Below are positions 12,765 through 29,858 of a DNA stretch of 64,000 bases, in pieces; within the stretch, counting starts at the first letter, position 1, and each line of letters begins with the position of its first letter. This DNA is from Promethearchaeota archaeon (lineage in GTDB: Archaea > Asgardarchaeota > Lokiarchaeia > Sigyniarchaeales > SOKP01), in contig JBHLON010000005.1 in NCBI GenBank assembly GCA_048940445.1, positions 32,001-96,000 on the forward strand, given 5' to 3'. A model generated the notes under the pieces. That model did not search any database. It had not been told where the DNA came from and saw only the letters and a list, made by a program, of their open reading frames with translations. A program made the position numbers and the translations under genes.

Positions 12765-12773
12765 ATATCTAAA

Positions 12774-13977: not shown

Positions 13978-14542
13978 TTGAGTACTAAAGGAAGATTGGT
14001 TGTAAAGGCTCTTGTGACTGGTGGGAGAGTTATAATTTAACATTCGTTTAGAATAAAACCCCGAATGCGTCAGGAGGGCCACCCATAGGTCCAGCTGTAG
14101 GTCCAACAGGCATAAAATTAAAATCTTTTCGATTTTTTGTGCAAATATAAAAGATGTCGTTGATGCGGTCAATGAAAAAACGATGATCTTCAAGGGCCTA
14201 ACAGTTCCGGTTAGGATTGAATGTGATCCTGAGACTAAACAATTTGAAATTTTTGTTGAAACTCCAAGTACTGCCTCTCTTCTCCTGAAGGAACTGGGCG
14301 TTGAGAAAGGGATTACTTCAGCTTCAGAATCAAAGATTGGTAATCTAACATTGGAACAGGTAATGGCTGTTGCAACCGCTAAGAAAGAGAAATTTTTGGA
14401 CAAAACTTATAGAACTGCTGTGAAAACTGTATTAGGTACAGCGTTATCAATAGGAGCTACCGTTGAAGGAGAAGATCCACGAGTAATTCAAAAAAAAATT
14501 GAAAATGGGGAATTTGATGATAGAATTAAGGGTGAGATGTAA
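13978..14542 (+). CDS. rpl11: 50S ribosomal protein uL11, split by two introns; exons 13978-14027, 14066-14115, 14145-14542 (165 aa)
   Basis: Spliced translation MSTKGRLVVKALVTGGSASGGPPIGPAVGPTGINIKDVVDAVNEKTMIFKGLTVPV... gives the complete uL11 N-terminus; TTG start after GGTG; first gene of the L11-L1-L10-P1 cluster. Confidence 0.93.
14028..14065 (+). other. Putative BHB-type mRNA intron 1 in rpl11 (38 nt)
   Basis: Central helix TGGG(14022-25)/CCCG(14060-63), bulges AG^A and AA^T, intron hairpin starting GTT/AAC; excision yields GGG AGT GCG in frame. Confidence 0.85.
14116..14144 (+). other. Putative BHB-type mRNA intron 2 in rpl11 (29 nt)
   Basis: Central helix GCAT(14110-13)/GTGC(14139-42), bulges AA^A and AA^A, intron hairpin AAAATC/GATTTT; excision yields GGC ATA AAT ATA in frame. 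Confidence 0.8.
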
Positions 14543-14545
14543 GAC

Positions 14546-15274
14546 ATGAAGTTAGATGATAAAATGTTAAGAAAATCAGTTAGCGCTGCTATTAAATTTT
14601 CAGTAAAGCAAAAAAAAGGGTCTAAAGATAAAGTTAGAAACTTTGATGAGAGTATAGATTTCATAGTAAATCTTAAAGATCTAAATTTAAATGACCCAAA
14701 ACAAAGAATTGATAAAGAAATCCTTTTACCCAACAATGTTCTAATCTCTGAAAAGCCAAATGTATGTGTGGTTGCTTCAGATGAAATTCTCTTGGAGGCA
14801 AAAAATTTAGGATTAGATACTTTGGATGAGGAGGGTCTTGTAAGATTAAATAATGAAGAGAAAAAGTATAAAAAAAAATTTGTTAAAAAGTATGATTTTT
14901 TTATCGTTGAAGACAAAATGATGCCAAATCTAGCTCGATATCTTGCTAGGTTTTTAGGACCAGTTGGTAAAATGCCAAAACCTTTCCCTAGTGGATATGG
15001 AATAATATCAAGTCCAGAAGATTTAAAAGTTGCAGTAGATCGGTATTTAAAAGCAATTCGAATTCAACTAAAGAAACAACCTCAGATACAAGTTAAAATC
15101 GGAAAGAAATCAATGGAAAAGAAAGAGGTTATTGAGAATTTAAAAACTGTTGTTGATTATATTGCAGAACAAATGCCCCATAAATATAACAACATTAAAT
15201 CCATGTATCTTAAAACAACAATGGGCCATCCTGTTAAAATTGATGAACAGCATTTAAAATCAATAGAGGTGTAA
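14546..15274 (+). CDS. rpl1: 50S ribosomal protein uL1
   Basis: RNFDESIDFIVNLK, LGPVGKMPKP, MYLKTTMGHPVKI. Confidence 0.96.
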   Translation: MKLDDKMLRKSVSAAIKFSVKQKKGSKDKVRNFDESIDFIVNLKDLNLNDPKQRIDKEILLPNNVLISEKPNVCVVASDEILLEAKNLGLDTLDEEGLVRLNNEEKKYKKKFVKKYDFFIVEDKMMPNLARYLARFLGPVGKMPKPFPSGYGIISSPEDLKVAVDRYLKAIRIQLKKQPQIQVKIGKKSMEKKEVIENLKTVVDYIAEQMPHKYNNIKSMYLKTTMGHPVKIDEQHLKSIEV

Positions 15275-15278
15275 ATAA

Positions 15279-16166
15279 TTGATTGGAAAAAAAGCTATTC
15301 CACAATGGAAGAAAAAAGAAGTTAATAGTTTAATAGATTTGTTTAAAAATAATAAAAATATCGCGGTAATTGAAGTTGCTAATTTAAATGATAGACAAAT
15401 TCAAGAAACAAGAAAACTTTTAAGAGGAAAAGCGATTATTAGAATGTCTAAAAAGAATCTACAGTTAAGGGCCATTGAAGAATTTAAAAAAGAATCAAAA
15501 AATTCAAATTTAGAAGAATTTGCGGAGAATATTCCTGGACAATCAGCCTTATGTTTTACAAATATGGATATTTTCGAATTAAAGAAGATTTTTAATGAGA
15601 ATGAGTGGATGGTTCCCGCGAAACCGGAGGAAGTAACTCCAGTAGATATTTGGGTTCCAGCCGGAGATACGGGATTACCTACTGGTCAGGTAATATCTGA
15701 GTTAAATATGACCTTGAAATTGCCAACAAGAATACAAAATGATACTATTTGGATAAGAGATGATACCAGAACACATAAAGCAGGAGATGTTGTTGATGTT
15801 AAACAAGCTGCAGTTTTGAAAAAGTTAGGAATTAAACCTATTGAATCATTAATTAGGATACATTCTGCTTGGAGCGATGGCGAGATTATACCCGAAGATA
15901 TTCTATATATGAATTTAGATCAGTTTAAGCAAGATCTTACAAAAGCTCATAGAGAAGCTCTCGGAATACTATTTGAAATCCCTGTTTTATTTGAAGATAT
16001 GACAAAAGAATATCTCCAAAAAGCAGTTGCAAGTGCTAATTTATTAAGTGCGATTATCTTTGGAGAAGGTTTGCAAGAAACTCCCAAGGTAGAACCTAAA
16101 GTTGAAGAAAAAGAATCTGAAGAAGAAGAAGAAGAACAAGTTGGTATAGGAGGTTTATTCGGCTAA
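15279..16166 (+). CDS. rpl10: 50S ribosomal protein uL10 (P0)
   Basis: IPQWKK, DIWVPAGDTGLPTG, LKKLGIKP, acidic C-terminus ending GIGGLFG. Confidence 0.96.
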   Translation: MIGKKAIPQWKKKEVNSLIDLFKNNKNIAVIEVANLNDRQIQETRKLLRGKAIIRMSKKNLQLRAIEEFKKESKNSNLEEFAENIPGQSALCFTNMDIFELKKIFNENEWMVPAKPEEVTPVDIWVPAGDTGLPTGQVISELNMTLKLPTRIQNDTIWIRDDTRTHKAGDVVDVKQAAVLKKLGIKPIESLIRIHSAWSDGEIIPEDILYMNLDQFKQDLTKAHREALGILFEIPVLFEDMTKEYLQKAVASANLLSAIIFGEGLQETPKVEPKVEEKESEEEEEEQVGIGGLFG

Positions 16167-16232
16167 ATTTTTCAACTGAAAATAAATTAAGAATTAAAAA
16201 TTATTGAAATTAAGAATTGGAGGTTATAAAAT

Positions 16233-16526
16233 ATGGAATCAATTTACGCTGCTTTATTGCTACATAAAGCCAATAAAAAGATTACAGAATCAAACTTAGA
16301 AAAGGTTTTAGAGGCGGCTGGTTCTAAAATCGACAAAGCAGAACTCACTAAGCTTATAGCAGGTTTAAAGGAGGTCAAACTTGAGGATATCATTAAATCC
16401 GCTGGCTCTGCTCCTGTTATGACAGCCCCAAGTGCAGCACCTAAAGTAGAAAAGAAAGAAAAAAAGAAGAAAAAAGAAGAAGAAGAAGAGGAAGAAGAAC
16501 CAACTGGTATTGGGTCACTTTTCTAG
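16233..16526 (+). CDS. rpl12: Ribosomal stalk protein P1 (aL12)
   Basis: MESIYAALLLH, acidic tail ending GIGSLF. Confidence 0.96.
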   Translation: MESIYAALLLHKANKKITESNLEKVLEAAGSKIDKAELTKLIAGLKEVKLEDIIKSAGSAPVMTAPSAAPKVEKKEKKKKKEEEEEEEEPTGIGSLF

Positions 16527-16719
16527 AAAAACTTGAATTAAATAAATTTTTTTTAACCTATTTTTTATTTATTATCTACAAAATTTTTTAAAAATTTAAA
16601 GTTCGATCAAAAACTTTTTTTTAAAGTTAATTTTTTATTAGTTACATTTATCAACCACTAAAGTGAAATTTATCTATAAATTAGACTTCCTAACAAAAAA
16701 ATGAAGGTATTGATACAAG

Positions 16720-18174
16720 ATGGGAGGTAAATTTCTTAAATTTTTCTCTCCATTTGTACGGGTAATGCCGGAGATAAAACAGCCCCAAAGAGAGGTAAGT
16801 TTTAAAGAAAAGCTCATTTGGACATCTCTTGTTTTGGTCATTTATATAATTATGTCCAGTATTCCTATGTACGGAGTAAATCTGGCAAATACCACAGATT
16901 ATTATTATTGGTTAAGGGTAATTTTAGCTAGCAAAAGAGGAACTCTAACCGAACTGGGTATCGGTCCTATAGTAACTGCTGGTTTAGTAATGCAATTATT
17001 ACTTGGTTCAAAAATTATTAAGGTAGATATGAGTGATCCATACGATAGAGCGATGTTTAGTGGCTCCCAAAAAGTAATGGCTTTGTTTTTAACCATATTT
17101 AATGCAGTTGCATACATTCTTGGTGGAGCCTTTGGTTCAGGTTTAGGTATTGCAACACAAACGTTCATATTTCTGCAACTATTGTTTGCTGGGATTATTA
17201 TAATACTTTTAGATGAACTATTACAAAAAGGATGGGGTCTGGGAAGTGGGGTTTCATTATTCATCGCTGCTGGAGTTGCAGGACAAATCTTTCTAAATTG
17301 CTTCAGTTTTTATGGGATCAATTCTCCACAGGGAGCAAGAGGTATAGTTGTTGCTTTTTTTGAATCCTTTACCAATCCTAATGTAGATATAGCATCACTA
17401 TTTCAAAGAGGACAATTACCTTCAATTTTAGGTGGATTAACTACATTACTTATTTTTGTAATTGTTGTTTGGCTTGAATCGACCAGAGTAGAAATACCTC
17501 TTACATACAGAGGATATCGAGGATTCAGAGGAAAATATCCAATGAAACTACTATATGTCTCTAATATTCCCGTGATATTAGTAAATGCCTTATATGCAAA
17601 TCTATTATTCTTCGGTCAGTTAATTGCAGGTCCAGATTCCGCCCTGCGGAACCCAGATACTGACTTCTGGTTAAACATTATAGGAAAATTTACTAAGGAG
17701 GCGTCGGCAACCCAACAAGGACAATATTTATTACCTACAGGAGGAATATTATATTTCTTATCAGCACCCCAAGGTATTAATGCCCTTCTTCAAGACCCCT
17801 TAAGAGCTGTTATTTATTTAGTCATATTCATATTTCTTTGTGTGATGCTCGGCCGTCTATGGGTTGAAGTCTCTGGATTAGCACCACGCGATATCGCACA
17901 ACAAATTCTCGATTCAGGTATGAGTGTGCCAGGATTTAGAAGCTCAGAACGTATAATTGAAAGAATTTTGAAGAGATATATTCCAACTTTAGTAATCATT
18001 AATGGAATGATAATTGCTTGTATGAGCTTCACCGCGGATTCATTGGGTGCATTGACTTCAGGTACGGGACTTTTGATCGCTATCGGCATCGTGCATCAAT
18101 ATTCAGAAACTATCGCAAAAGAGGTAGCGGCATCTCAATACCCAGGCATGCGGAGCTTCCTTGGCTTGGATTAG
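16720..18174 (+). CDS. secY: Protein translocase subunit SecY/Sec61alpha
   Basis: GTLTELGIGPIVTAG, DELLQKGWGLGSGVSLFIA, YPMKLLYVSNIPVIL, SGTGLLIA. Confidence 0.97.
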   Translation: MGGKFLKFFSPFVRVMPEIKQPQREVSFKEKLIWTSLVLVIYIIMSSIPMYGVNLANTTDYYYWLRVILASKRGTLTELGIGPIVTAGLVMQLLLGSKIIKVDMSDPYDRAMFSGSQKVMALFLTIFNAVAYILGGAFGSGLGIATQTFIFLQLLFAGIIIILLDELLQKGWGLGSGVSLFIAAGVAGQIFLNCFSFYGINSPQGARGIVVAFFESFTNPNVDIASLFQRGQLPSILGGLTTLLIFVIVVWLESTRVEIPLTYRGYRGFRGKYPMKLLYVSNIPVILVNALYANLLFFGQLIAGPDSALRNPDTDFWLNIIGKFTKEASATQQGQYLLPTGGILYFLSAPQGINALLQDPLRAVIYLVIFIFLCVMLGRLWVEVSGLAPRDIAQQILDSGMSVPGFRSSERIIERILKRYIPTLVIINGMIIACMSFTADSLGALTSGTGLLIAIGIVHQYSETIAKEVAASQYPGMRSFLGLD

Positions 18175-18270
18175 GCAATTCTATTTCTTTTCTATTATTT
18201 CTGAATAATTATAAAGATATTTAATATACAAAAAAATTTAAAATAATAGAGCGTATTTAGTACACTATCT

Positions 18271-18951
18271 ATGTTATTAATAATTTTTCAAGGGCTAGGT
18301 TGGTTTAGTTATCCACCCGGATCGATGTTATTTGTGTTGTTATTGGCTACAGCAACAGCATTGTTAAGCACAGGATTGACTAAATGGTTGACTGATATTG
18401 ATGAGATGAATAGGAAACAAAAGGCTTTAAAGGCGCATAATGAAGAAAAAGCCAAGATTATTGAATTAGCAGAAATTGATGTTGAGCGTTATAGAAAGCT
18501 TCGTAAAAGATGGGAACGAAAAGATAGTATGTTTAAACAGACTCAGCAAAGAATGTCACTCCAGCGTCTTAAACCTACATGTATTACCTTTTTACCAATG
18601 ATAATTATATTTACGCTTGTAAATTTTGTATTTAGACCTAATAATATACCTGTACCAGTTGCATTGTCCCCCATGAATGCAAATGACATTCCTTTTATTG
18701 GAGGGATAATAGCAGGTTTTACTGGTGGGCCATCAAATCCAGAATGGCCATACATATTTTATCACACATTTTATAAAGTTATCCAACCTTACCACGGATG
18801 GATTAATTTTACGGCATGGTATTTTCTGTGTAGTTTTGGAATAAATACTCTTATTCAAAGAATTTTTAAGTTACAGACTCAAGCTTCCGGTGGATTTGAA
18901 CAAATGATGGGTGGTGGTAGATCAAAAGCTATGGAATTTCCAGATGTCTGA
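18271..18951 (+). CDS. DUF106 / EMC3-TMCO1-Get1 (Oxa1 superfamily) membrane insertase
   Basis: TM, coiled coil, LKPTCITFLPMIIIF, WYFLCSF; usual position after secY. Confidence 0.88.
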   Translation: MLLIIFQGLGWFSYPPGSMLFVLLLATATALLSTGLTKWLTDIDEMNRKQKALKAHNEEKAKIIELAEIDVERYRKLRKRWERKDSMFKQTQQRMSLQRLKPTCITFLPMIIIFTLVNFVFRPNNIPVPVALSPMNANDIPFIGGIIAGFTGGPSNPEWPYIFYHTFYKVIQPYHGWINFTAWYFLCSFGINTLIQRIFKLQTQASGGFEQMMGGGRSKAMEFPDV

Positions 18952-18985
18952 AAATTATTCAAATTTATTATTAAAAAAGAAAGTA

Positions 18986-19087
18986 CGCAGACAGAGGGAT
19001 TTGAACCCTCGAGTGCTTTCACACACCAGCTTATTAGGTAAGTGCTTCTCTCCAAGCTGGCGCCGTACCAGGCTAGGCTATGTCTGC
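18986..19087 (-). tRNA. tRNA-Ser(GGA) with 18-nt intron at 37/38 (19032-19049)
   Basis: Acceptor GCAGACA/TGTCTGC, G73, anticodon stem CCAGC/GCTGG, long variable arm, GTTCAAATC; BHB helix TTGG/CTAA. Confidence 0.93.
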
Positions 19088-19162
19088 AAAAAATTTAAAT
19101 AAAATAACGCACACGAGCGTCATTTATCATATTTAAATTAGGGAATTTAAGGTCTTAATTTA

Positions 19163-19447
19163 TTATTTAGGGATTTCTACAGTCTCCTTCATCCTCTTAT
19201 CTAATTTAGCTTTCTTAATCGCTGTTTCTACATCTTCATGTTTAGCGCCCTTTTTAATCTCGATTATGTCAGCTAGAGGTTCAATATGGTTATAATTGAC
19301 TCTTCTCCTTCGAACTTTTAAACCATCGATTATAACAAAGTTCTTATCAATGATATCTACTATAACACAGTAATTTCCTGCTTCTCTTCCCATTGTTTTT
19401 ACACAAACTCTTCCTATATCATAAATACTCATATAATTCGTCACCAA
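19163..19447 (-). CDS. rpl14e: 50S ribosomal protein eL14
   Basis: IGRVCVKTMGREAGNYCVIVDIIDKNFVIIDG. Confidence 0.96.
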   Translation of the reverse strand: MVTNYMSIYDIGRVCVKTMGREAGNYCVIVDIIDKNFVIIDGLKVRRRRVNYNHIEPLADIIEIKKGAKHEDVETAIKKAKLDKRMKETVEIPK

Positions 19448-19564
19448 ATTACTTTAAGTTCATTTATCATTACTGAATCTTAGTTTCAGTAAGGATAAAT
19501 ATTTATTTGTAAATTAAGAAATTATACAAAAAATAAATCTTTTATGGTTTGTGAAGTAGAAGGT

Positions 19565-20101
19565 TTAGGCCCTTTTATTCAATTTTTTAATGATAATATC
19601 CACTATTTCTCCAATCGTTAAATTCTCAGTATTAATTGTTAAATCGAAATTTTCATTTATTTCATTCAGATTGGTTATGTCAATTTGGTATAATCTCTGG
19701 AAACGCGTGGCTTCTGATCGTTCTCTCAAAATTGTTTCTTTTAATTTTTCTTCATATGGAGTCTTATCTCTAGAACACATCCTTTTAACTCTGATATCAA
19801 TTGGACATGCTAAATAGATTCTAAAGTCTGCTATTTCTTTAAGAAGAAATCCACTTAATTGACTTTCTATTATGATATCTCCTTTTTTAGCGATTTGAAT
19901 GATTTTTTCATCCAAGTTAAGATCTATATCTGGATTGTTTTCAACATATTCTGTAAATTCTTTTAGGCTCATATTTTTTTCACGTGCTAATTCTCTGAAA
20001 GCTTCGCCTGTAGAATAATATCTATGATCAAGAGCATTAGCAATTAATTTACCAATTGTTGATTTTCCAGTTCCATGAAGGCCTGAAATTGTAATAATCA
20101 C
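19565..20101 (-). CDS. cmk: Cytidylate kinase (archaeal type)
   Basis: ITISGLHGTGKSTI, STGEAFRELA, NPDID; located between eL34 and eL14. Confidence 0.93.
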   Translation of the reverse strand: MIITISGLHGTGKSTIGKLIANALDHRYYSTGEAFRELAREKNMSLKEFTEYVENNPDIDLNLDEKIIQIAKKGDIIIESQLSGFLLKEIADFRIYLACPIDIRVKRMCSRDKTPYEEKLKETILRERSEATRFQRLYQIDITNLNEINENFDLTINTENLTIGEIVDIIIKKLNKRA

Positions 20102-20163
20102 ATCTATTAACCTTGTGGAATGTGATTGAAAAATAAAAATTAAACAAGGATATTAAAAGACGC

Positions 20164-20433
20164 TTATAACTGCCATACAGTTTCTTTAAGAATACTTTGT
20201 AAGCATTTAGCACAGTATTGTCCACTCGCAATTCTATTTGCTCTTCTAGATGTCTTATCTGTTTTTTTCATTTTAGAAGGTCGTAGTCGCGAGATTGATT
20301 GAAGTGGTTTTTTACATACGATACATCGGACTTTACTTGGCTTTCTTCTCCAATAGTGAGTTGTTGTACGGTTTCCTGGAGTTTTTAGCTTTTTTCTTGC
20401 TTGTGTCTTTGATCTTAATCCTGGTCTTGGCAA
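20164..20433 (-). CDS. rpl34e: 50S ribosomal protein eL34
   Basis: MPRPGLRS, KTPGNR, CIVC...CAKC zinc motif. Confidence 0.95.
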   Translation of the reverse strand: MPRPGLRSKTQARKKLKTPGNRTTTHYWRRKPSKVRCIVCKKPLQSISRLRPSKMKKTDKTSRRANRIASGQYCAKCLQSILKETVWQL

Positions 20434-20515
20434 GTTGGTTCCCTTTAGAATCTTTAATTAAAATTTGCCACTTAAATTGATATATTATAAAGTTGAAACA
20501 AGTTAATTAATTTTA

Positions 20516-21178
20516 TTATTTTGAATAATCTCTCAAATTCAATTTCTCTTGAAATTCTTGATACAATTTGTATAAATCATCTTCAATTGACTCTCTAAAA
20601 TTCTTGTTTTTAGTAAACTTTGAGTAGTTGTTTATAACGTTTTTATAAATACTTTCAAAGTTTAATCGTATCAATTCTAAACCCGGAAATTTTTCTAGAT
20701 TTTCTTTTATATCCTCGAATAGTTGTGATGTAATACTTTTATTGTCTAATGCATTTAATCTAAACGCATCTATTAGAGTGATAAACGAAGAAGTAATTTG
20801 AGAAGTAACCCCAGGAAGTTCAAGCATAGATGAGCTAATTGATTTCCTCTGCAAATATGATTTATCAATACTTTCTCGGTCCTGATTTTTTGAAAAATCA
20901 AGCTCGGATACGGTGTTTATTATATCAATAGCTTTAAAATAATTTTCATTAAATTTCATATAATCCAAAAATTCAGTAAGATCAATTTTTTGTTCTTTTA
21001 ATTGGAAATTGATTTTTAAAAGATCATTCATACAACTTTTAATAGATTTTTGGAAAAAATTGTGGTTTAAATTACCATTTTGATACTTTTTATACAATGT
21101 AAGTATTGTATTAACAACTGAATAGAGATCTGATTCAATATCGGCTATTTTTTTTTTCTTTTTTCCTTCTTCAGACAT
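20516..21178 (-). CDS. vps28: Vps28-like (ESCRT-I) protein
   Basis: SDLYSVVNT..LYKKY (N-domain), ITSSFITLIDAFRL and IEDDLYKLYQEF (C-domain) resemble Vps28 FITxMDxLRL and FDLExAYxxF motifs. Confidence 0.72.
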   Translation of the reverse strand: MSEEGKKKKKIADIESDLYSVVNTILTLYKKYQNGNLNHNFFQKSIKSCMNDLLKINFQLKEQKIDLTEFLDYMKFNENYFKAIDIINTVSELDFSKNQDRESIDKSYLQRKSISSSMLELPGVTSQITSSFITLIDAFRLNALDNKSITSQLFEDIKENLEKFPGLELIRLNFESIYKNVINNYSKFTKNKNFRESIEDDLYKLYQEFQEKLNLRDYSK

Positions 21179-21246
21179 TTATTACTTTAATAGATTAATA
21201 TATAATGATTATATAAAATGAAGATTTAGGATTAATAAATTTATCT

Positions 21247-22155
21247 TCAAAATGTTGAGCCTAAAAAGAAGAAAAGTCCTGCTACTAGTATACCAATTAT
21301 TAAAGACGATATTAAAACTCTTGTTGTGGAGGAGTTTGACAATTCTCTTATCGAAAGCGTAACTAAAATTGGAACCCATATTCCAATCGTTATTGCATCA
21401 ATAGAATGTAATATAATCCATGTAGAAGAAGTAAATATATTATTAAATACTGATGGATCAAACAAGCCCAAGATATTAATAGGAACGGAGCTAAATCCAA
21501 CTAGTGTAATAATAATTTCAATTAGGTTGATTAAAATAAAAGGAGAGAATGAGCAAAACATCATTCTATACTTAAAGGCTTGTTGTTGATGCAAAGTTCC
21601 TCCTTTATAAATGCTAAAAGGGCTCATTTCTGCTTCACGATATTTTTCTTTTGCATCTTTTCCTAAATACAATTCTAATTTTTCTGAAAATCCAACTGTA
21701 TAATTGGCTCCTTTGGTAAATAGCCAAATCACTATGAAACCAAAAATAAAATAGTATGCTAATCCAAATAGAAAAAATGCAGTAAAAATAGTTAAATTAT
21801 AGAAAAAGATTCTAAAGTCAAGGGGAGGGACGTCTTGTATATTAAAATGTGAAAAGAAAGCCAATCCTAAAAATCCATAGAGTAGCGCATTAAAGATTAA
21901 TATTAAATAACCTGGAGCTGACTTTCTACGATGATTAATGCTCCAAAATGCCTTATTGGGTTTAGTAAATAACCACAATATGATCTTATACCAAGGATCC
22001 GGAGTAGTCCAATCTAATTCAATACGTTTAAAAATTGAAAACTTTTCAATTTTTTCAAATCTTAACCTTTTACCACAGAAAGTACAGACGAAGAAATCTG
22101 CACGAACTTCATTACCGCATCTAGGGCATCGTAATTGAGTTATTATGGTTGCCAT
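21247..22155 (-). CDS. Zinc-ribbon plus Yip1-like membrane protein
   Basis: CPRC..CTFCG N-terminus, LFTKPNKAFWSI amphipathic motif, about 5 TM segments. Confidence 0.65.
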   Translation of the reverse strand: MATIITQLRCPRCGNEVRADFFVCTFCGKRLRFEKIEKFSIFKRIELDWTTPDPWYKIILWLFTKPNKAFWSINHRRKSAPGYLILIFNALLYGFLGLAFFSHFNIQDVPPLDFRIFFYNLTIFTAFFLFGLAYYFIFGFIVIWLFTKGANYTVGFSEKLELYLGKDAKEKYREAEMSPFSIYKGGTLHQQQAFKYRMMFCSFSPFILINLIEIIITLVGFSSVPINILGLFDPSVFNNIFTSSTWIILHSIDAITIGIWVPILVTLSIRELSNSSTTRVLISSLIIGILVAGLFFFLGSTF

Positions 22156-22281: not shown

Positions 22282-23352
22282 TTAAAAATATTTAATTATC
22301 AAAGATTTCTTATCTTGAATAATTTCATAATCTCTATTAGTAAAAAGTTTCACTAACTCTAAATTGGTTTTAGTATGACTAGTAATTTCAAGCACTTTAA
22401 TAGATGAAGATTCTTTAACAAAGGCCATGAGTGGGATTAACTGATCACTTAGGTAATTATCGACAGGAATTTGATTGAAAACGTACTTTAAAATTTCCCT
22501 TGACGCCACTTTTCCTAATCTTTCTGAACTTAAATTTCTCTCACCAAGTATGGTCCCCGATGAAATGATTGCTCCTGAATCAGAGTGTGCCCAAAGACAG
22601 ACTCCTACTCCTGGACTGATAGATTTAACCCTAGAACAACTTATATCCATTTCGAAATTTGTATTTCGTTTTATTTCTCGTCTTATTGAATTTTTAATTC
22701 TCTCTCCAATATCCTTCTGTATTAGATTTGAAACAATTATTTCACCCTCAATTAGGTCAATATTTCCTAGTTCGGTAAGGTTGAGTGGCTTTAATTTCAT
22801 TTTAGGTGGTAAGATTTTACATTTAGTCAAGGCTCCTCCTTTCGGGTAAAATCCGAATTCTTCTATTTTAATTACAAGTTCAAGACCACTCATTTTGAAG
22901 AATGGATATGTTACGTTCATTAAGTAATTTAAGCTTGGAGCCCATTTACCAAAAGTACCTCCTCCTTTAATAGAAATCATGATCTGATCATTATGAGAAA
23001 ATCTAAGACTAGAAATCTGAATTGGTTGAATTAATAAGCCAATACTAGCTGCAGTGTCAACATTGACGTTTAAATGATCTTTAATTCTCAGATTTGGGTT
23101 AAAAGTTATTTCCTCTGTACCAATTTTGCATTCTCCATTTATGGCATTAAGTTGACTGCCAGTTAATTTAGCTAAAGTTTGCAATCCTAGAAGATGTTGA
23201 AGGCGTAAACCTCTTTGAGGACGATTAGCCCGAATATTAAATATTCTTATTGGTTGATCAAATAGAAGTGAAAATCCAGCCGCTATACGTAAAATAGAAC
23301 CCCCGCCTTCCCCAAAAGCACCATTAATTTCTAAGTATTTTTTCTTACTCAT
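22282..23352 (-). CDS. rtcA: RNA 3'-terminal phosphate cyclase
   Basis: GEGGGSILR, IRANRPQRGLRLQHL, GFYPKGG, LSDQL, catalytic His in TSHTKTN. Confidence 0.93.
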   Translation of the reverse strand: MSKKKYLEINGAFGEGGGSILRIAAGFSLLFDQPIRIFNIRANRPQRGLRLQHLLGLQTLAKLTGSQLNAINGECKIGTEEITFNPNLRIKDHLNVNVDTAASIGLLIQPIQISSLRFSHNDQIMISIKGGGTFGKWAPSLNYLMNVTYPFFKMSGLELVIKIEEFGFYPKGGALTKCKILPPKMKLKPLNLTELGNIDLIEGEIIVSNLIQKDIGERIKNSIRREIKRNTNFEMDISCSRVKSISPGVGVCLWAHSDSGAIISSGTILGERNLSSERLGKVASREILKYVFNQIPVDNYLSDQLIPLMAFVKESSSIKVLEITSHTKTNLELVKLFTNRDYEIIQDKKSLIIKYF

Positions 23353-23354
23353 AA

Positions 23355-24506
23355 CTAATTTGTTTCAATATATAGCTGTTTGATTCTTTCTATTCCATTC
23401 TTTTGAATTATTAAATTAGCTACTTCTTTGGGTACTAAACTCTTCCACTCTTGATTGTTTTTATTAATCAATTCTCTAACATTAGAGCCATTATACTTTT
23501 TCTTAAAGATTGTTATTTTCTTCCCCAATTTATATCCCTTGGCCTTAAACAGTTGCCTTACCCATTCACTATTAGAATATATTATATCAAATTCCCCTAC
23601 AATAGATTTAACATGGTTAACCCATTCTTTAGCATTAAATATGTCTGGAATTTCATAAATCTTATATTTCGAGGAACTTATACTTCTTTTTTCTAGAGCG
23701 GTTCTAAGAAATTGGACTCTTTCTTTGCTAGAAAAAGGATTAGTCTTAGTATCAGAGAGTTGAGAGCTACCAATCCCTATTTTAACGAAGTTATGATTTT
23801 TATAAAGTTGATTAAGCACATATAAATGTCCATGATGCAGTGGTTGAAATCTTCCAATAAATAGAGCAATGTCTTTTTTTATAGGATTATTTTTTTGATT
23901 ATCTAACTGGAAATATTTAGTAGGGTCCAATTCAGAAATCTCTTTCCAAATTCTTTTTGAATAATCAATGTATTTTTCATTTTCTAATATATTTTTTAAT
24001 TCTGATTTATTATAAAATCTGCTTTCCTTAACGTCTAATTCTTCTGGATTAGGTTTTAATTCAATATCACATTCTACCAAGCCTAAAAAGATATACGCAA
24101 TTTCCAAGGTTTTTTCATTCGTCTCAGCATTTAGATCATAAAATTTAATTTGAATAAGCGTATTTGGGGATATTCCAAATTCTTCTTGTAATTCTCTTTT
24201 TGCATTATATGTAATATCGTTTATATCGAGATTTTTTTTGTAGATTACATGCCCTGAAGCAGAATCTGTAAAGTATTCTGGAAACTCTTTCTTTTTTTTA
24301 CTTCTTTTTTGGACAAGAAAATGAATGTCATTTGCTGGTGAAATAGCGATTATAAAGACTCGAATAATTAAGTGACTGACTTTTTTTCTGTGAGCCTCTT
24401 GTCTTTCCATAGGATAAACAAATTTTGAAATTTGACCCGAATGTAGATATTTTATATTTTTTTCATCAATGCAAGCTAAGATTTCTTTTTCCATGAGTCT
24501 AGCCAA
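23355..24506 (-). CDS. Nudix domain fused to NMN adenylyltransferase (NadM)
   Basis: N-terminal QKRS..K..FP..SASGH...AKRELQEEFG; C-terminal FIGRFQPLHHGH, IGIGSSQ, NPFS..ER, W..LVP. Confidence 0.88.
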   Translation of the reverse strand: MARLMEKEILACIDEKNIKYLHSGQISKFVYPMERQEAHRKKVSHLIIRVFIIAISPANDIHFLVQKRSKKKKEFPEYFTDSASGHVIYKKNLDINDITYNAKRELQEEFGISPNTLIQIKFYDLNAETNEKTLEIAYIFLGLVECDIELKPNPEELDVKESRFYNKSELKNILENEKYIDYSKRIWKEISELDPTKYFQLDNQKNNPIKKDIALFIGRFQPLHHGHLYVLNQLYKNHNFVKIGIGSSQLSDTKTNPFSSKERVQFLRTALEKRSISSSKYKIYEIPDIFNAKEWVNHVKSIVGEFDIIYSNSEWVRQLFKAKGYKLGKKITIFKKKYNGSNVRELINKNNQEWKSLVPKEVANLIIQKNGIERIKQLYIETN

Positions 24507-24507
24507 G

Positions 24508-25344
24508 TTAATTAATTCTAATTATGATAGTATCACCAACTTTAAATCCCATTCTTTCTGCAGCATTTCCTTGATTAAGAGAAATTTCTAATAATCCAGA
24601 GGACCCTTCTAAAAATAAAATTGAGTTCTTTTCTACATTATTGTAATAAGTTGTAAAAGGTCCAATATACTCTTTATCATTTATAAATAAGTGAATCTTA
24701 TCACCCTCTTTCAACGTTAAAAGAGAATTTCCTATCTTTTCTTGGTTTAATGGAACATTTGTAATACTATTTCCAAATTCATCGATATAAATGATCATAG
24801 CTTCTATTTTCCTGTCTGATAGAGAAATTTTATACTTATAGGGGATTTCTACTAAATCTTTAGGATTAAATGGTGGCCCAAATTCTTTTAAATCATGATT
24901 TTTAGAAATATAGGCAGCAACAGGTGCCATTATATCTCTCCCATGAAAAGTATTAGAAACTGGTTTCAAAAAGTATTTTTCGTTTTTTATGTTTACGCAT
25001 TCAACTATATCATTTAATGTAAAAAGATTTGTAAAGATTCCATTGTTAGGTCCAATGAAGTAGTAGTTAGATGTTATTTTGATTGCCACAATCTCTCTTA
25101 GAGAGCCCACTCCAGGATCTACAACTATAACAAAAATTGAATCATTAGGGAAGTAATTATAACACGCTTTTATTAAGAAGGAAGCTTCATACAAATTGTG
25201 GCGACTAACGTTATGATTTATATCTATTATATGAACATTAGGATTAATGTTTAATATTACAGCTTTTATGGTCGCAACATAATGTAAACCCCGTGTTCCA
25301 AAATCTGTAATTAAACCGATAATTCTTTTGTTCAAATTGCCCAT
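24508..25344 (-). CDS. SAM hydroxide adenosyltransferase (DUF62, chlorinase/fluorinase family)
   Basis: LITDFG, VVDPGVGS, GPNNG, SNTFHGRDIMAP, IDEFGN, LEISLNQGNAA. Confidence 0.93.
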   Translation of the reverse strand: MGNLNKRIIGLITDFGTRGLHYVATIKAVILNINPNVHIIDINHNVSRHNLYEASFLIKACYNYFPNDSIFVIVVDPGVGSLREIVAIKITSNYYFIGPNNGIFTNLFTLNDIVECVNIKNEKYFLKPVSNTFHGRDIMAPVAAYISKNHDLKEFGPPFNPKDLVEIPYKYKISLSDRKIEAMIIYIDEFGNSITNVPLNQEKIGNSLLTLKEGDKIHLFINDKEYIGPFTTYYNNVEKNSILFLEGSSGLLEISLNQGNAAERMGFKVGDTIIIRIN

Positions 25345-25350
25345 TTTTCA

Positions 25351-26250
25351 TTAATCTTTATATTTTTCGTCTACTTTGTAGAACTCTTCCAATGCTTTAG
25401 ACTTTAATCTGTATTCTTCCTCTTTTTCAAACTCTACTAGCTTTTTCGATAATTCACTTGCTTCTTTGTATGACAAATAAGCTGAATGAAAATCATCATT
25501 TCTCAAAGAATTTTTAGCATCTTGTACCAATTTATCTCTCTCCTTAGATATTTCTGGAACTTTTTCTGAAAAGTTAGCCTTCTCATTCAAGGATTCAGCA
25601 ATATCTATTAAATACAAAGAATTTGCCATATCTGCAGCTCTTTTATAAAACTTTGCTGCTTTCTCATAATCAAGTGATTTCAAAGCATTCTCAGCGATAT
25701 CATATTGTTCTGAAACTTTTTCATGTTCGCCATTTTCTACCTTTTTCAGAAGATCCTGAGCAATTTTTCTTTCATTCTTTCCTCCACTTAACATAAATTT
25801 CGTAATAGAGATAATGCTTGATTTCAAGGCATCTGGCTTTAAAATATCAATAAAGGGTTCTAGATGTTCATAGTAAATATCTTTTAAAATTGGTTTAAAT
25901 TCGTCTTTAGACAAAGTTAATAAATTTAAACCAATAACTTCAATTGCTTCTGCACCCAATTTAAGAGAAGAACGAAATTTTTCAGGTTTATCATTCTCAT
26001 TCAGTAATAAGCCTATAATTGTTCCCGATGCTTTTCGAGACAATTTTCCTTTGAATTTATATATATAAGAGAAAATTTGGAAATCTTTTATTTTTAAGAG
26101 ATTATATTCATTTTTCCCATGATCAAGATTCAATCTTAGAAAAAGATCATTCGAAACTTCAAAATTTGACTTACCTTCTTTAAAGTAATAGCCCAAAATT
26201 CTATAATCGGCTTCTAAAGGTAATAAAATTACAAAACTTCCTATTGGCAT
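25351..26250 (-). CDS. Hypothetical protein; possible longin-like N-domain and TPR/MIT-like helical C-domain
   Basis: Beta-beta-alpha-beta3-alpha pattern at N-terminus; twice-repeated A..AL...D(Y/F)..A...YK.A.. helical motif. Confidence 0.6.
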   Translation of the reverse strand: MPIGSFVILLPLEADYRILGYYFKEGKSNFEVSNDLFLRLNLDHGKNEYNLLKIKDFQIFSYIYKFKGKLSRKASGTIIGLLLNENDKPEKFRSSLKLGAEAIEVIGLNLLTLSKDEFKPILKDIYYEHLEPFIDILKPDALKSSIISITKFMLSGGKNERKIAQDLLKKVENGEHEKVSEQYDIAENALKSLDYEKAAKFYKRAADMANSLYLIDIAESLNEKANFSEKVPEISKERDKLVQDAKNSLRNDDFHSAYLSYKEASELSKKLVEFEKEEEYRLKSKALEEFYKVDEKYKD

Positions 26251-26324
26251 CGTTATTAAGTCTCCATTAAATTAATTAATACTAAAATATAATAAATGTT
26301 AATCATCCAAATTTAAAGAGTTTA

Positions 26325-26744
26325 CTATTCCTTACAACTCATTATTCTGTTTGTTTCTTCTCTGATTGATTGGATTATGTTTAATAGTTGCGCGTAATAA
26401 AGGTTATTGGATACATTCTTAGCCGCCTGTCTAATTATTTCTATTGCCTTTTTTTCTTCTTCTGTTATACTTTCTAATGATTTTTTTTCATACAACTCTT
26501 TAACCTTTGCATTAAAATCATCTGCAATTTCTTGAATACTCTCACTCGATTTCATTCTAAACTGTTTAAGCACTTCTACAATGAGGCGGATATTTTCATT
26601 GACAGATATAGTTTCTTCAGAAAATTTCTGTGACATAGCTTGAATTGATGTACTCATATGATTAATCTGGGCAATTGTTCCATCTAATGAAGATGTTATT
26701 TGATTAATTTTATTTATCATCTCATTTAATAAATTTTCTGCCAT
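26325..26744 (-). CDS. Hypothetical coiled-coil protein
   Basis: 139 aa, heptad pattern, GGTGA upstream. Confidence 0.75.
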   Translation of the reverse strand: MAENLLNEMINKINQITSSLDGTIAQINHMSTSIQAMSQKFSEETISVNENIRLIVEVLKQFRMKSSESIQEIADDFNAKVKELYEKKSLESITEEEKKAIEIIRQAAKNVSNNLYYAQLLNIIQSIREETNRIMSCKE

Positions 26745-26756
26745 GAGTTCACCTTT

Positions 26757-27161
26757 TTATAATTTTGTGGAGGAATATTGTTTTAAATTTTTTACAGAAC
26801 TTATAGCCTCAGATAATAATAAATTCACAGTATCTTGATTTAAGACTTCTCCTGATAGTTTTTGAAATTCATCAAGTTTTTTTATTAAAGTGTTTAAAGC
26901 ATCCAACCCCAATCCTTCTTTAATGCTTTTTAATTCCAATTTAGTGCTTTCACCAATATCTCTTAGAACTTCAATGTGTTTCGTTTGAGTAATTTCTATT
27001 TCCTCTGAAAATGATTTTAACTTTTCGTTTAGATTGGTAATTTTTTCCTCGATATTTTTATTTAAGCCATCCAAGGAAGTGTTTAGCGCTTGGATTGCTT
27101 GACCTAATTGAGCTATTCTTTTATAAATAGAATTTAATAAATCTGTTAGCATTTCAGCCAT
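26757..27161 (-). CDS. Hypothetical coiled-coil protein, probable paralog of neighbour
   Basis: 134 aa, heptad pattern, shared MAE.L...I.Q...SLDG N-terminus. Confidence 0.75.
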   Translation of the reverse strand: MAEMLTDLLNSIYKRIAQLGQAIQALNTSLDGLNKNIEEKITNLNEKLKSFSEEIEITQTKHIEVLRDIGESTKLELKSIKEGLGLDALNTLIKKLDEFQKLSGEVLNQDTVNLLLSEAISSVKNLKQYSSTKL

Positions 27162-27341
27162 GATCTTCTCGCTCTTAAATATAAATAATTAAATTCTTAA
27201 TAAATTCATTTTGTAGCTTTAATTATAAATATAACAGAGTACAACAATAAAAAAATTTTTATGTTTTTGAAACTTTTGAATTTTTAAGGAAAATATTTTT
27301 TTAAATGTACAGAAGACTTTAGATAAAATTATCATTCTCTT

Positions 27342-27520
27342 GGGCCATTAGCTCAGACTGGTTAACAAGGTTTTAAAAGCTTGGTCAAAAAGCGCAGGTC
27401 TTATAAATGACCGACGGACATACATCAAATTAAATTGTCTGTTATTAGTAAAAACCTGAGTCTCATTGTGTTTCCATCAATGAGTGAAGGAAATCCGGGG
27501 TTCAAATCCCCGATGGCCCA
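27342..27520 (+). tRNA. tRNA-Ile(UAU) with three introns (27365-27389, 27407-27453, 27461-27492)
   Basis: Acceptor GGGCCAT/ATGGCCC, A73, anticodon arm CAGGT-CTTATAA-ACCTG, T arm CGGGG-TTCAAAT-CCCCG; removing 25+47+32 nt leaves a 75-nt tRNA. Confidence 0.88.
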
Positions 27521-27531
27521 TTTTTAAAATA

Positions 27532-28212
27532 TTATTTATCTAAATTTGTTGAAATTAAGTTTAAAGTCCACTTCTTTATCTGCATAAGATTTTTTAACAA
27601 TCCTGCTACAAGATTTTCAGGAAACGGTTTTTCTTGGTCAAGATTTTGGACTATGGTCATCCACTTATTTAGGGCTAATTGTACTAGACTCGCACCATCG
27701 GCTTCCATAAATATAGGTATTACCGCAGCACTCTCTCTAGCATCCCCAATAGAGAAATAAATCTTTCTATTCATATCTTTTAACATTACTAAATTTGCGC
27801 ATTCATCCAATTTACGTTCTACTAAAATCATTTTAAGTATTTGAGTTTGAATATCTTTATTCTTTTTTATGAATTGTTCTTTTCTGTTGATTATAAGAGG
27901 TTGTATTTCCGTTACAAGTTTATCTCCAGTGGAATCCTTTGGAAAAAATTTAGTCAATTTGATTACATCGTCTAAGACTTCAATATTAATGAATTTTTTA
28001 GTGTTAGAATAAAAAATTGTTTGAAATCCTCCTTTATCTTCACTAGGAGAGAGTTTAATGAAAATATTTCTCATTGTGATTGAATTACAACAATGATATG
28101 CTAATTCGAATAATTCTTTTGAAGTTAATGGGTTATATGGTATTTGAATATCTTTGAAGAGCCATTGTGAAGATATAACATTATTAAACTGATTTAAAAG
28201 TCGATTCTCCAT
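27532..28212 (-). CDS. Hypothetical protein
   Basis: 226-aa ORF, no recognised motif. Confidence 0.7.
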   Translation of the reverse strand: MENRLLNQFNNVISSQWLFKDIQIPYNPLTSKELFELAYHCCNSITMRNIFIKLSPSEDKGGFQTIFYSNTKKFINIEVLDDVIKLTKFFPKDSTGDKLVTEIQPLIINRKEQFIKKNKDIQTQILKMILVERKLDECANLVMLKDMNRKIYFSIGDARESAAVIPIFMEADGASLVQLALNKWMTIVQNLDQEKPFPENLVAGLLKNLMQIKKWTLNLISTNLDK

Positions 28213-28308
28213 AATTAGATAACATAATAGTATTTATTATTATATAGTTCTATTCATTTTTATTTATTTTTATTATTTATGTAGAAGAATTAAATAATTT
28301 GATTGATT

Positions 28309-29694
28309 TTACTTCTGTACAATTTGATTATAGGCTTTTTCGAATCTATTAACAGCAAGAATTATATCCCTTGAAGTGGTACCTATAGCAGCATTCATTA
28401 TAATATAGGGAATTGTATAGTTTGAACAACAAGTTCCAAATGCACTTTTTTTAGGATTATATACTCTTGGACCAGTAACCCTTAAGTTATATAAAGCTCC
28501 TCCTAATTCTGATAACTGATCTTCTCTTAAATTTTTTAATGTCATTGCTACTGCAACTGGATTAAATACATCTAAAATTCTCTCATTTATCTTTTTAGCG
28601 ACATTCTCAATTTTTTGTTGTAATAATTTTCGATTTTTCTGTTGAGTAGTTATTAATTTCTGATATCCTTTCAGCCCCAAAGAAAGAATTGAAATCAAAA
28701 TGTTAACAATTGGAGTTGCTGAAGCGCGTCCAGCATAAGCTTGACTTATTTTGATAATCTTTTCTTTATGTGGTGAAGCAATTATCGCCCCACCAATAGG
28801 AGTAAGTACATTTTTATCAGTTGATTGAATTATCGCATCTATTCTTCCCGCATCTATTCCTGAGCGAATCAATTTCATCCATTCTGGGCTCTGAACTCCA
28901 TATGCGTTTATTACAATATGAACAAGATCATTTTCCTTGGCAAATTTACTGATTTCTTTAATATCATCATTTTCACGAGGAGGAAAGAAACTTGTAGAAG
29001 AAATAATCGCAAAGCAATCTTTATCTAATTTTAATTTAAGATTTTCAATTGGAATTCGAACAGCATCTCCAAAAATTTTACCCTCAACAATTTTTGGCTT
29101 CACACCTACTAAATCGATGCCCTTTAAAAGAGATTTATGGTCAATTTGGGGTACTAAGACTGTTCTTTTAGATATTAATGCCTTATTATTCCAATTAGGC
29201 CTTAGAGCGCTAAGACACAAAGCTAATGACATTCCAGTACATAATGGTACCACAATTGCACTTTCAATATTTGGTATACCAAATTTCCTCATAAAGTCTC
29301 GTGTTAAATAATTTGTTAATTCATACATAATAGATCCACCAGGGGCTTTTGGTTGAGGAGCTGTTAAAAACCCACTTCTACCTACACCATGACAAAAGCC
29401 TTGTGAAGTTTTAATATGTAATTTAGACGCTATCCTAGCTTCTCGTTCTCCTACTCGTGCTGCTTTAATGTCCTTATCTGTATCCATATTTGAAAGTGTT
29501 TGTAAGAGATATGCGATTTGTTCATCTGTCCAATGTTCTTTTGGAACACTTTTCTGTTCAAATAGAATTTTAATCGGTTTAAGAAATTCTTTTAATACTA
29601 ATTGTCCTCTATTCAATATATTTTCAGGAATAGATGCAGTTTTAAAATATTCAATAATTTTATTAAACTCAATCAATTTAAACACTTTTATCAT
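28309..29694 (-). CDS. spcS: O-phosphoseryl-tRNA(Sec) selenium transferase (SepSecS)
   Basis: MDTDK..VGEREAR, FCHGVGRSG..APQPKAPG, TGMSLAL, DHKS, NAYGVQ, QSTDKN (PLP Lys), YAGRASA. Confidence 0.96.
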   Translation of the reverse strand: MIKVFKLIEFNKIIEYFKTASIPENILNRGQLVLKEFLKPIKILFEQKSVPKEHWTDEQIAYLLQTLSNMDTDKDIKAARVGEREARIASKLHIKTSQGFCHGVGRSGFLTAPQPKAPGGSIMYELTNYLTRDFMRKFGIPNIESAIVVPLCTGMSLALCLSALRPNWNNKALISKRTVLVPQIDHKSLLKGIDLVGVKPKIVEGKIFGDAVRIPIENLKLKLDKDCFAIISSTSFFPPRENDDIKEISKFAKENDLVHIVINAYGVQSPEWMKLIRSGIDAGRIDAIIQSTDKNVLTPIGGAIIASPHKEKIIKISQAYAGRASATPIVNILISILSLGLKGYQKLITTQQKNRKLLQQKIENVAKKINERILDVFNPVAVAMTLKNLREDQLSELGGALYNLRVTGPRVYNPKKSAFGTCCSNYTIPYIIMNAAIGTTSRDIILAVNRFEKAYNQIVQK

Positions 29695-29701
29695 AAAGAT
29701 A

Positions 29702-29858
29702 TGGCGGCCCTTGAGGAGATTTTCTAAGATTGGTTAATTTCCAACCATTATCGAACTCCTATCCCTCCGCAGGATAACTAGGTTTGAAGCCTAGCGTCAG
29801 AGACCACTTATCGTTGGAGATCGATATGATCTCAAAACAATTCCGACCGTCAAGGGCC
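29702..29858 (-). tRNA. selC: tRNA-Sec(UCA), 9/4 fold, encoded CCA, two introns (D-arm 29808-29841; T-loop 29720-29749)
   Basis: 9-bp acceptor GGCCCTTGA/TCAAGGGCC, G73-CCA, 7-bp D stem, CTAGG-CTTCAAA-CCTAG, long variable arm, 4-bp T stem GGAG/CTCC; directly upstream of SepSecS. Confidence 0.93.

What the first reader, a model, noticed from the sequence alone, without database searches (positions are those of the whole stretch)
13978..29858. Eight BHB-like introns within 16 kb, shared between tRNA and mRNA: an intron-rich, relaxed-specificity splicing system
Seen: 2 introns in rpl11, 1 in tRNA-Ser, 3 in tRNA-Ile and 2 in tRNA-Sec. All are 18-47 nt AT-rich hairpins, and 7 of 8 end in AA at the 3' cut. 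Several have relaxed motifs: a G-A mismatch in the central helix of the Ile 45/46 and Sec 59/60 introns, and a weak exon-exon helix in rpl11. Known: non-canonical intron positions need broad-specificity EndA forms (alpha2beta2 or epsilon2). Inference: the same machinery let introns spread into protein genes, so other apparently frameshifted or truncated genes in this genome may be spliced.
Basis: partly seen in the sequence, partly recalled or inferred. Interest (0 to 1): 0.72.

Follow-up and report, generated by a model that had tools for sequence, protein, structure and literature searches.

The report
tRNA-type introns in Asgard protein genes
In this uncultured Asgard archaeon the short hairpin introns normally cut out of tRNAs also interrupt at least 12 protein genes, including the only gene for ribosomal protein uL11, so their messenger RNAs very probably have to be spliced by the tRNA-splicing enzymes; the papers I could search document this inside an archaeal coding sequence only for cbf5.

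Summary
All eight inserts are real. The genome is a Lokiarchaeia (Promethearchaeota) of the Loki_b31/b32 group. The six tRNA introns are known Asgard biology, and the 16-kb cluster is only where three tRNAs happen to lie. The two rpl11 inserts (38 and 29 nt) behave as mRNA introns. Removing them at bulge-helix-bulge (BHB) cut points gives a gap-free 165-aa uL11. Of 63 related rpl11 genes, 35 carry such inserts at four sites. The 4-bp helix holds in 40 of 46 inserts at the true register and in 0-1 at shifted registers, and the exons are under purifying selection. Genome-wide I count at least 15 such introns in 12 protein genes (including dnaG, metG, purA, uvrA, fwdA); one in fwdA is in-frame and stop-free. 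EndA has an alpha subunit with the broad-specificity L1 loop and a separate beta subunit; RtcB and archease are present. mRNA and tRNA introns share shape and size but not sequence. No spliced RNA has been seen (no RNA run was listed). Other agents of this scan reported the same phenomenon, including rpl11 introns, in other Lokiarchaeia genomes. New variant of the cbf5-type intron.

The parts
13967..13971 (+). Shine-Dalgarno-like GGTGA, 6 nt before the rpl11 start
   Evidence: sequence
13978..14027 (+). rpl11 exon 1 (50 nt, TTG start; ATG at this place in the closest relative G017)
14028..14065 (+). rpl11 intron 1, 38 nt: helix UGGG/CCCG, bulges AG^A and AA^U, shifts the frame and holds an in-frame stop
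14066..14115 (+). rpl11 exon 2, a 50-nt micro-exon coding the conserved SGGPPIGPAVGPTGI stretch
14116..14144 (+). rpl11 intron 2, 29 nt: helix GCAU/GUGC, bulges AA^A twice, weak exon-exon helix, shifts the frame
14145..14542 (+). rpl11 exon 3; the spliced product is a 165-aa uL11, 85% identical without gaps to the intact gene of G003
14546..16526 (+). downstream operon genes rpl1 (PF00687), an ORF at the rpl10 position (15279-16166, not scanned) and rpl12/P1 (PF00428); no intron found in them
18986..19087 (-). tRNA-Ser(GGA) gene
19032..19049 (-). canonical 37/38 intron of tRNA-Ser, 18 nt, strict BHB
   Evidence: the same site is used in 7 related loci
27342..27520 (+). tRNA-Ile(UAU) gene with three introns
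27365..27389 (+). tRNA-Ile intron 21/22, 25 nt
   Evidence: an insert at this site is also in G061
27407..27453 (+). tRNA-Ile intron 38/39, 47 nt
   Evidence: also in G061
27461..27492 (+). tRNA-Ile intron 45/46, 32 nt, G-A mismatch in the central helix
   Evidence: precisely absent in G061
29702..29858 (-). tRNA-Sec(UCA) gene with two introns, directly upstream of SepSecS (28309-29694) and a Sel_Asgard gene (27532-28212)
29808..29841 (-). tRNA-Sec D-arm intron, 34 nt
   Evidence: a different insert at this site in G061
29720..29749 (-). tRNA-Sec intron 59/60, 30 nt, G-A mismatch
   Evidence: precisely absent in G061

Best explanation
The rpl11 inserts, and similar inserts in at least 11 other protein genes of this genome, are BHB-type pre-mRNA introns removed by the tRNA-splicing pathway. 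After transcription, the last exon bases pair in a 4-bp helix with the intron's 3' end, between two 3-nt bulges. The (alpha-beta)2 EndA cuts after the second base of each bulge, and RtcB with archease joins the exons, restoring the frame. The L1 (CSL) loop lets EndA accept relaxed motifs: a missing or offset exon-exon helix, or one mismatch in the central helix. Shown here: the DNA anatomy, exact frame repair, precise presence and absence in relatives, conserved pairing with G-U pairs and a compensatory change, purifying selection on the exons, and the presence and residue pattern of the enzymes. Inferred: that cutting and joining happen on these mRNAs in vivo, and that this EndA is the enzyme. 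The introns come and go repeatedly within this genus and sit in conserved, often glycine-rich motifs, where an imprecise loss would be lethal (inference).
For: Excision gives a stop-free 165-aa uL11, 85% identical and gap-free against an intact relative; it is the only uL11 match in the genome. Among 63 distinct related rpl11 genes, 35 carry 46 inserts at four fixed sites and 28 have none; 37 of the 46 shift the frame. The central helix is 4/4 in 40 of 46 at the true register and in 0-1 of 46 when shifted by 1-3 nt; 24 of 46 use a G-U pair. At site 1, exon UGGG goes with intron CCCR/CUCA and exon AGGG with CCCU/CUCU. Exons 1-2 against intron-bearing relatives: pS 0.61, pN 0.059. In a motif-free comparison with 1592 proteins of relative G061, 9 of 16 frame-breaking insertions meet strict BHB rules against 2 of 143 ordinary in-frame insertions. 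Decoy geometries return only slid copies of real introns or two weak hits. dnaG carries an intron at the same codon in 17 of 29 genus loci, at another codon in 2 and none in 10; metG in 3 of 29. fwdA has two 30-nt BHB inserts; the first falls exactly where the solved FwdA has a 10-residue gap. EndA alpha aligns with Aeropyrum EndA (3P1Z, E 3e-38) through the loop lysine and the Tyr/His/Lys triad; the beta paralogue lacks the His. RtcB and archease are adjacent genes. PMC5829648 ties the L1 loop to cleavage of relaxed motifs and reports it in Asgard.
Against: No spliced transcript or protein was seen. In local folds the central helix is poorly populated for some introns (dnaG, rubredoxin, metG, C94-2: pair probability about 0.1 or less). 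The genomes compared are related, so the counts are not independent. Cut points were chosen among 1-5 sequence-equivalent positions with the help of the BHB rule. The genome-wide count rests on about 60% of one reference genome plus targeted checks; the mevalonate kinase and rubredoxin cases rest on motifs recalled from knowledge of those families and on open-frame lengths only.
Confidence: 0.87

Rival explanations
1. rpl11 and the other genes are pseudogenes or decaying copies, and the inserts are neutral damage.
For: No RNA data; unspliced reading stops early.
Against: Single uL11 match in the genome. pN/pS is about 0.1 in exons 1-2. The same sites are interrupted in dozens of genomes with pairing kept. 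dnaG and metG gave one match each in this genome, and MetRS is essential (established knowledge).
Confidence: 0.02
2. The ribosome bypasses or frameshifts over the inserts (T4 gene 60-like hopping) and the RNA is not cut.
For: Hairpins and in-frame stops resemble bypass signals; cbf5 was once confused with frameshifting (PMC2738675).
Against: Terminal repeats are only 0-3 nt and absent at rpl11 intron 1, so matched take-off and landing codons are mostly missing. Nine junctions checked split a codon (phase 1 or 2). The conserved feature is a 4-bp exon-intron helix exactly 2 nt from both cuts, as in the tRNA introns.
Confidence: 0.04
3. The inserts are cut out of the DNA, or are assembly errors.
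For: All genomes are metagenome assemblies.
Against: The same sites recur in independent assemblies from many studies. G-U pairs are tolerated in 24 of 46 helices, which points to RNA. No target-site repeats.
Confidence: 0.02
4. They are RNA introns, but removed by a different nuclease or by self-splicing rather than by EndA/RtcB.
For: Some have a weak or offset exon-exon helix and a poorly populated central helix in local folds.
Against: Length (mode 30-31 nt), A+T content (0.70) and bulge letters match the genome's tRNA introns. At 21-38 nt they are far too short for group I or II ribozymes (established knowledge). An L1-loop EndA is present.
Confidence: 0.05

Closest known systems
BHB intron in the cbf5 pre-mRNA of Desulfurococcales and Sulfolobales (Watanabe 2002; Yokobori 2009, PMC2738675)
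   Same: Short insert in a coding sequence at a conserved motif, often with a relaxed BHB, cut after the second bulge base, in organisms with a hetero-oligomeric EndA; gains and losses across relatives.
   Different: There it is one gene with one site and is confirmed by cDNA. Here at least 12 genes per genome, two-intron genes with 50-nt micro-exons (up to three introns in rpl11 of relatives), core translation and replication genes, an Asgard lineage, and no RNA confirmation. cbf5 itself is intact around its catalytic motif here, so this is not the same intron.
EndA-cut intron in the 5' UTR of Haloferax HVO_1309 (PMC7714728)
   Same: mRNA as a substrate of the tRNA splicing endonuclease.
   Different: Lies outside the coding sequence; that paper names cbf5 as the only other case.
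Multiple non-canonical tRNA introns of Asgard archaea (PMC11291895; bioRxiv 10.64898/2026.10.13.758758) and Thermoproteales
   Same: The six tRNA introns here are of this kind: several per gene, in D-arm, variable-region and T-loop positions, missed by standard tools, repeated gains, little sequence sharing.
   Different: The preprint has no occurrence of 'mRNA', 'cbf5' or 'ribosomal protein', and the intron passages of the Nature Communications paper concern tRNA only; neither treats protein genes.
IRE1/RtcB splicing of XBP1/HAC1 mRNA in eukaryotes
   Same: Non-spliceosomal removal of a short, frame-shifting mRNA intron followed by a tRNA ligase (my own knowledge; mentioned in PMC13149111).
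   Different: Different nuclease and recognition motif, one regulated target; an analogy only, no homology tested.

Membership tests
BHB (EndA-type) intron | 4-bp central helix between exon and intron, ending 2 nt before each cut | tested here: met
   4/4 in both rpl11 introns, 14 of 15 mRNA introns in the genome, 40 of 46 in relatives against 0-1 at shifted registers
BHB (EndA-type) intron | Cuts after the second base of each 3-nt bulge regenerate the intact product | tested here: met
   Gap-free uL11, valid cloverleafs, and precise absence in relatives
BHB (EndA-type) intron | Intron-side helix next to the bulge | tested here: met
   First inner pair formed in all 15 mRNA introns and four of four in 11; stability is modest
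BHB (EndA-type) intron, strict hBHBh' form | Exon-exon helix directly after the 3' bulge | tested here: not met
   Weak for rpl11 intron 2, offset for intron 1; these are relaxed forms. Met for several others (ptp, AIR-synthase-like, fwdA-2)
BHB (EndA-type) intron | Removal from the RNA by EndA and joining by RtcB | not testable with these tools
   Needs RNA reads or an in vitro assay
(alpha-beta)2 EndA with broad specificity | Separate catalytic and structural subunit genes | tested here: met
   Two PF01974 genes of 201 and 205 aa; only one has the Tyr/His/Lys triad
(alpha-beta)2 EndA with broad specificity | L1/CSL loop with the conserved lysine in the alpha subunit | tested here: met
   The GISKP loop aligns with the Aeropyrum (3P1Z) and Sulfolobus (2CV8) loops; its role is taken from PMC5829648
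(alpha-beta)2 EndA with broad specificity | Heterotetramer assembly and cleavage of relaxed motifs | not testable with these tools
   Biochemistry needed
Crenarchaeal cbf5 intron | Intron in the catalytic Asp codon of cbf5 | tested here: not met
   The cbf5 GHxGTLDP motif is uninterrupted in G000 and G061
Introns transposed from tRNA genes (Thermoproteales type) | Sequence similarity between introns at different loci | tested here: not met
   Best mRNA-tRNA intron scores lie within shuffled controls; one p of 0.03 among 15 tests. The tRNA set is partial
Group I / group II self-splicing introns | Ribozyme core of hundreds of bases | tested here: not met
   Inserts are 18-47 nt; Rfam finds no intron family in the window

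The most novel reading that the evidence does not exclude
This Lokiarchaeia genus runs a genome-wide, non-spliceosomal mRNA splicing system. Tens of protein genes per genome, among them uL11, DnaG and MetRS, depend on EndA/RtcB. The system includes multi-intron genes with micro-exons, in-frame introns hidden inside annotated proteins, and continuing gain and loss. [quoted passage not shown]
Probability: 0.72. Interest if true: 0.88.

Novelty: new variant of a known kind. Interest (0 to 1): 0.78.

Why it matters
Archaeal coding sequences are treated as intron-free apart from cbf5. If a dozen or more core genes per genome need the tRNA-splicing enzymes, gene models and marker-gene sets for this abundant Asgard group are systematically wrong: truncated uL11, DnaG and MetRS, and extra residues in FwdA. 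mRNA maturation would then sit between transcription and translation in a cell without a nucleus, which bears on how early eukaryotes tolerated introns. The four polymorphic sites within the first 35 codons of rpl11 are a compact test bed for how BHB introns are gained, which the recent Asgard tRNA preprint names as the central open problem. The test is cheap: short RNA substrates plus two recombinant subunits.

Tried and rejected
RNA evidence: no RNA holder was listed for window:12000-20000; this is neither for nor against, and no reads could be laid. A purely de novo BHB-plus-coding-score scan does not discriminate: true and decoy geometries each gave 16-18 thousand candidates. Looking for introns shared with G061 from those candidates was swamped by collinear shadow frames in true and decoy sets alike, so introns shared with the reference are undercounted. 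A suspected UUCG-loop signature is not enriched across sites (4 of 15, p 0.2). Copying from tRNA introns: no sequence support. Hopping or transposon footprints: no terminal repeats. No other intron was found in window genes covered by relatives' loci. The Zn-ribbon intron noted by another reader was not checked. My tRNA census is partial (27 tRNAs; it missed Ile and Sec, which were added by hand) and some of its boundaries are uncertain. One PDB query failed on frame. Literature searches found no report of BHB introns in Asgard protein genes; most subscription journals are not covered, and PMC2738675 says such introns had been 'predicted' in other archaeal genes in sources I could not read.
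Full report
Verdict. The tRNA part is known Asgard biology. The protein-gene part is very probably real mRNA splicing by the tRNA pathway, on a scale that the papers I could search do not describe for any archaeon. No RNA evidence was available.

Organism. The window is G000:C61:32001-96000 of a 3.64-Mb, 30% G+C genome, 93% complete. The closest uL11 relatives are Promethearchaeota (Lokiarchaeia) assemblies, including Loki_b31 and Loki_b32.

The eight inserts. All lie where a BHB model puts them. ARAGORN sees no tRNA in the raw window but calls Ser(GGA), Ile(UAU) and SeC after excision. Lengths are 18-47 nt and A+T is 62-79%. Seven end in AA, and Ile 45/46 and Sec 59/60 have a G-A mismatch in the central helix. 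Relative G061 lacks exactly those two inserts at the predicted junctions and has its own T-loop insert in tRNA-Ile. Multi-intron Asgard tRNAs are published (PMC11291895; bioRxiv 10.64898/2026.10.13.758758). A partial census gives 34 introns in 29 tRNAs across the genome, so the 16-kb grouping carries no meaning of its own.

rpl11. Removing 14028-14065 and 14116-14144 gives a 165-aa uL11 from the TTG at 13978, with exons of 50, 50 and 398 nt; it is 85% identical without gaps to the intact gene of G003. It is the only uL11 match in the genome. Among 63 distinct related genes, 28 have no insert and 35 carry 46 inserts at four sites (near codons 17, 25, 29 and 34), up to three per gene; 37 of the 46 shift the frame. 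The 4-bp helix is complete in 40 of 46 at the true register and in 0-1 of 46 when shifted by 1-3 nt. Two of the six misses look like boundary errors of my aligner; the other four are real one-mismatch helices at site 2. Twenty-four of 46 use a G-U pair. At site 1 the silent third base of a glycine codon covaries with the intron: UGGG with CCCR/CUCA, AGGG with CCCU/CUCU. Exons 1-2 are under purifying selection (pS 0.61, pN 0.059). On the gene tree the intron-free state needs 12 changes, at least 9 forced by well-supported branches, so gain and loss are recurrent; the tree does not separate gains from losses. The 23 matches outside the genus are uninterrupted. The exon-exon helix is weak for intron 2 and strong but offset for intron 1, so both are relaxed motifs.

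Other protein genes. I compared G000 with 1592 proteins from about 60% of relative G061 without using any motif. Nine of 16 frame-breaking insertions meet strict BHB rules, against 2 of 143 ordinary in-frame insertions; most of the other seven have weak flanks or lie in doubtful ORFs. The nine are rpl11 (two), a CxGNxxRS phosphatase-like gene (C84), a small GTPase (C72), purA (C134), uvrA (C63), an AIR-synthase-like gene (C61:8911-8940) and a 241-aa gene next to rtcB (C94, two). A second route with decoy geometries added dnaG. Leads from other readers were then checked. dnaG has an intron at the same codon in 17 of 29 genus loci, at another codon in 2 and none in 10; five genomes of other families have long open frames there. 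metG has one in 3 of 29, with a C-A mismatch in this genome's central helix. fwdA has the noted stop-bearing 30-nt intron and a second 30-nt, in-frame, stop-free insert (C47:63579-63608) with a 4/4 helix, exactly where solved FwdA has a 10-residue gap; I did not see this one among the notes shown to me. Mevalonate kinase and rubredoxin fit the geometry but were checked only by motif and open-frame length. The total is at least 15 introns in 12 genes, 21-38 nt, mode 30, 14 with a full helix. This is a floor, because introns shared with the reference or outside the fetched part are missed. G061 has its own set, three clean cases in the part read, and one relative has an insert in the adenylate kinase P-loop.

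Machinery. There are two EndA genes. The 201-aa one aligns with Aeropyrum EndA alpha through the Tyr/His/Lys triad and the L1/CSL loop lysine; the 205-aa one lacks the histidine and is the beta subunit. PMC5829648 links that loop to cleavage of relaxed motifs and already reports it in Asgard. RtcB and archease are neighbours on C94.

Mechanism. Shown: anatomy, exact repair, polymorphism, kept pairing, selection and enzyme presence. Inferred: EndA cuts both bulges of the pre-mRNA and RtcB joins the exons before translation can make uL11 (confidence 0.87). mRNA and tRNA introns match in length, A+T content and bulge letters but not in sequence, so shared machinery is supported and copying from tRNA genes is not. 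The introns sit in conserved motifs, often near the 5' end; this may reflect selection against imprecise loss, the need for G+C-rich pairing bases in an A+T-rich genome, or detection bias, and I could not separate these. Pseudogene, hopping, DNA-level excision and another nuclease are each at or below 0.05.

Comparison and novelty. The closest known case is the crenarchaeal cbf5 intron (PMC2738675); PMC7714728 names it as the only other mRNA case beside a Haloferax 5' UTR intron. cbf5 is intact here. It works like the cbf5 intron and meets every sequence-level feature of a relaxed BHB intron, but differs in scale, in the multi-intron genes with micro-exons, in the core genes affected and in lineage: a new variant of a known kind. 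Other agents of this scan reported rpl11 and other mRNA introns in other Lokiarchaeia genomes; those notes are not independent evidence, and the score rests on my own tests.

Side finding. The window's tRNA-Ile has the anticodon UAU, also seen in G061, and the agmatidine enzyme TiaS (PF08489) was not found in any of 61 Lokiarchaeia genomes searched while all four control archaea have it. AUA is common here (24,579 codons in long ORFs). This suggests eukaryote-like AUA decoding; PMC8879553 says prokaryotes generally do not use UAU. I did not search for a tRNA-Ile(CAU) thoroughly.

Noticed in passing
window 27342-27520 (+): tRNA-Ile has anticodon UAU (also in G061) and TiaS (PF08489) was not found in 61 Lokiarchaeia genomes searched, while 4 of 4 control archaea have it: possibly eukaryote-like decoding of AUA without agmatidine.
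   Followed up: partly
window 27363 and 27390 (tRNA-Ile D-stem): The spliced tRNA-Ile has only three D-stem pairs, with a C13-A22 mismatch next to the 21/22 junction.
   Followed up: no
window 22282-23352 (-): An RNA 3'-terminal phosphate cyclase gene (RtcA, TIGR03399 over cut-off) lies between the intron-bearing tRNA-Ser and tRNA-Ile genes; a link to splicing chemistry is untested.
   Followed up: no
window 27532-29858 (-): Selenocysteine cluster: tRNA-Sec, SepSecS and a Sel_Asgard (NF045535) gene in a row.
   Followed up: no
window 23355-24506 (-): Fusion of a Nudix/IPP-isomerase-like N-terminal domain with an NMN adenylyltransferase domain.
   Followed up: no
window 12078-13448 (+): Two tandem FAA-hydrolase family genes directly upstream of the rpl11 operon.
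   Followed up: no
window 16720-18951 (+): secY followed by an EMC3/TMCO1-like membrane protein gene.
   Followed up: no
L291:1094-1123 (G000 C47:63579-63608): In-frame, stop-free 30-nt BHB insert in fwdA matching a 10-residue gap in solved FwdA: a likely hidden intron that no frameshift screen would find.
   Followed up: partly
L142:417-1200 (G000 C94:59617 onward): The two-intron 241-aa gene lies directly upstream of rtcB, with archease just beyond; feedback on splicing capacity is conceivable but untested.
   Followed up: no
L068 (adenylate kinase gene): A 30-nt stop-bearing BHB-like insert in the P-loop of adenylate kinase in a relative; the window's own copy is intact.
   Followed up: partly
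G061 C12:205678-205708, C12:69954-69981, C10:447264-447293: Three clean BHB inserts in G061 genes that are intact in G000 (motifs suggest AMP phosphorylase, RNase HII and a deacetylase-family protein).
   Followed up: partly
L291:2302-3021 (-): An ORF next to fwdA with a GYYDGDG motif that recalls LAGLIDADG-type proteins (from memory, not tested).
   Followed up: no
L052, L057, L058, L069, L071, L079: Records titled Odin-, Hod-, Hermod-, Thorarchaeota or even a bacterium carry uL11 at 76-83% identity to this genome and are probably mislabelled members of the same Lokiarchaeia group.
   Followed up: no
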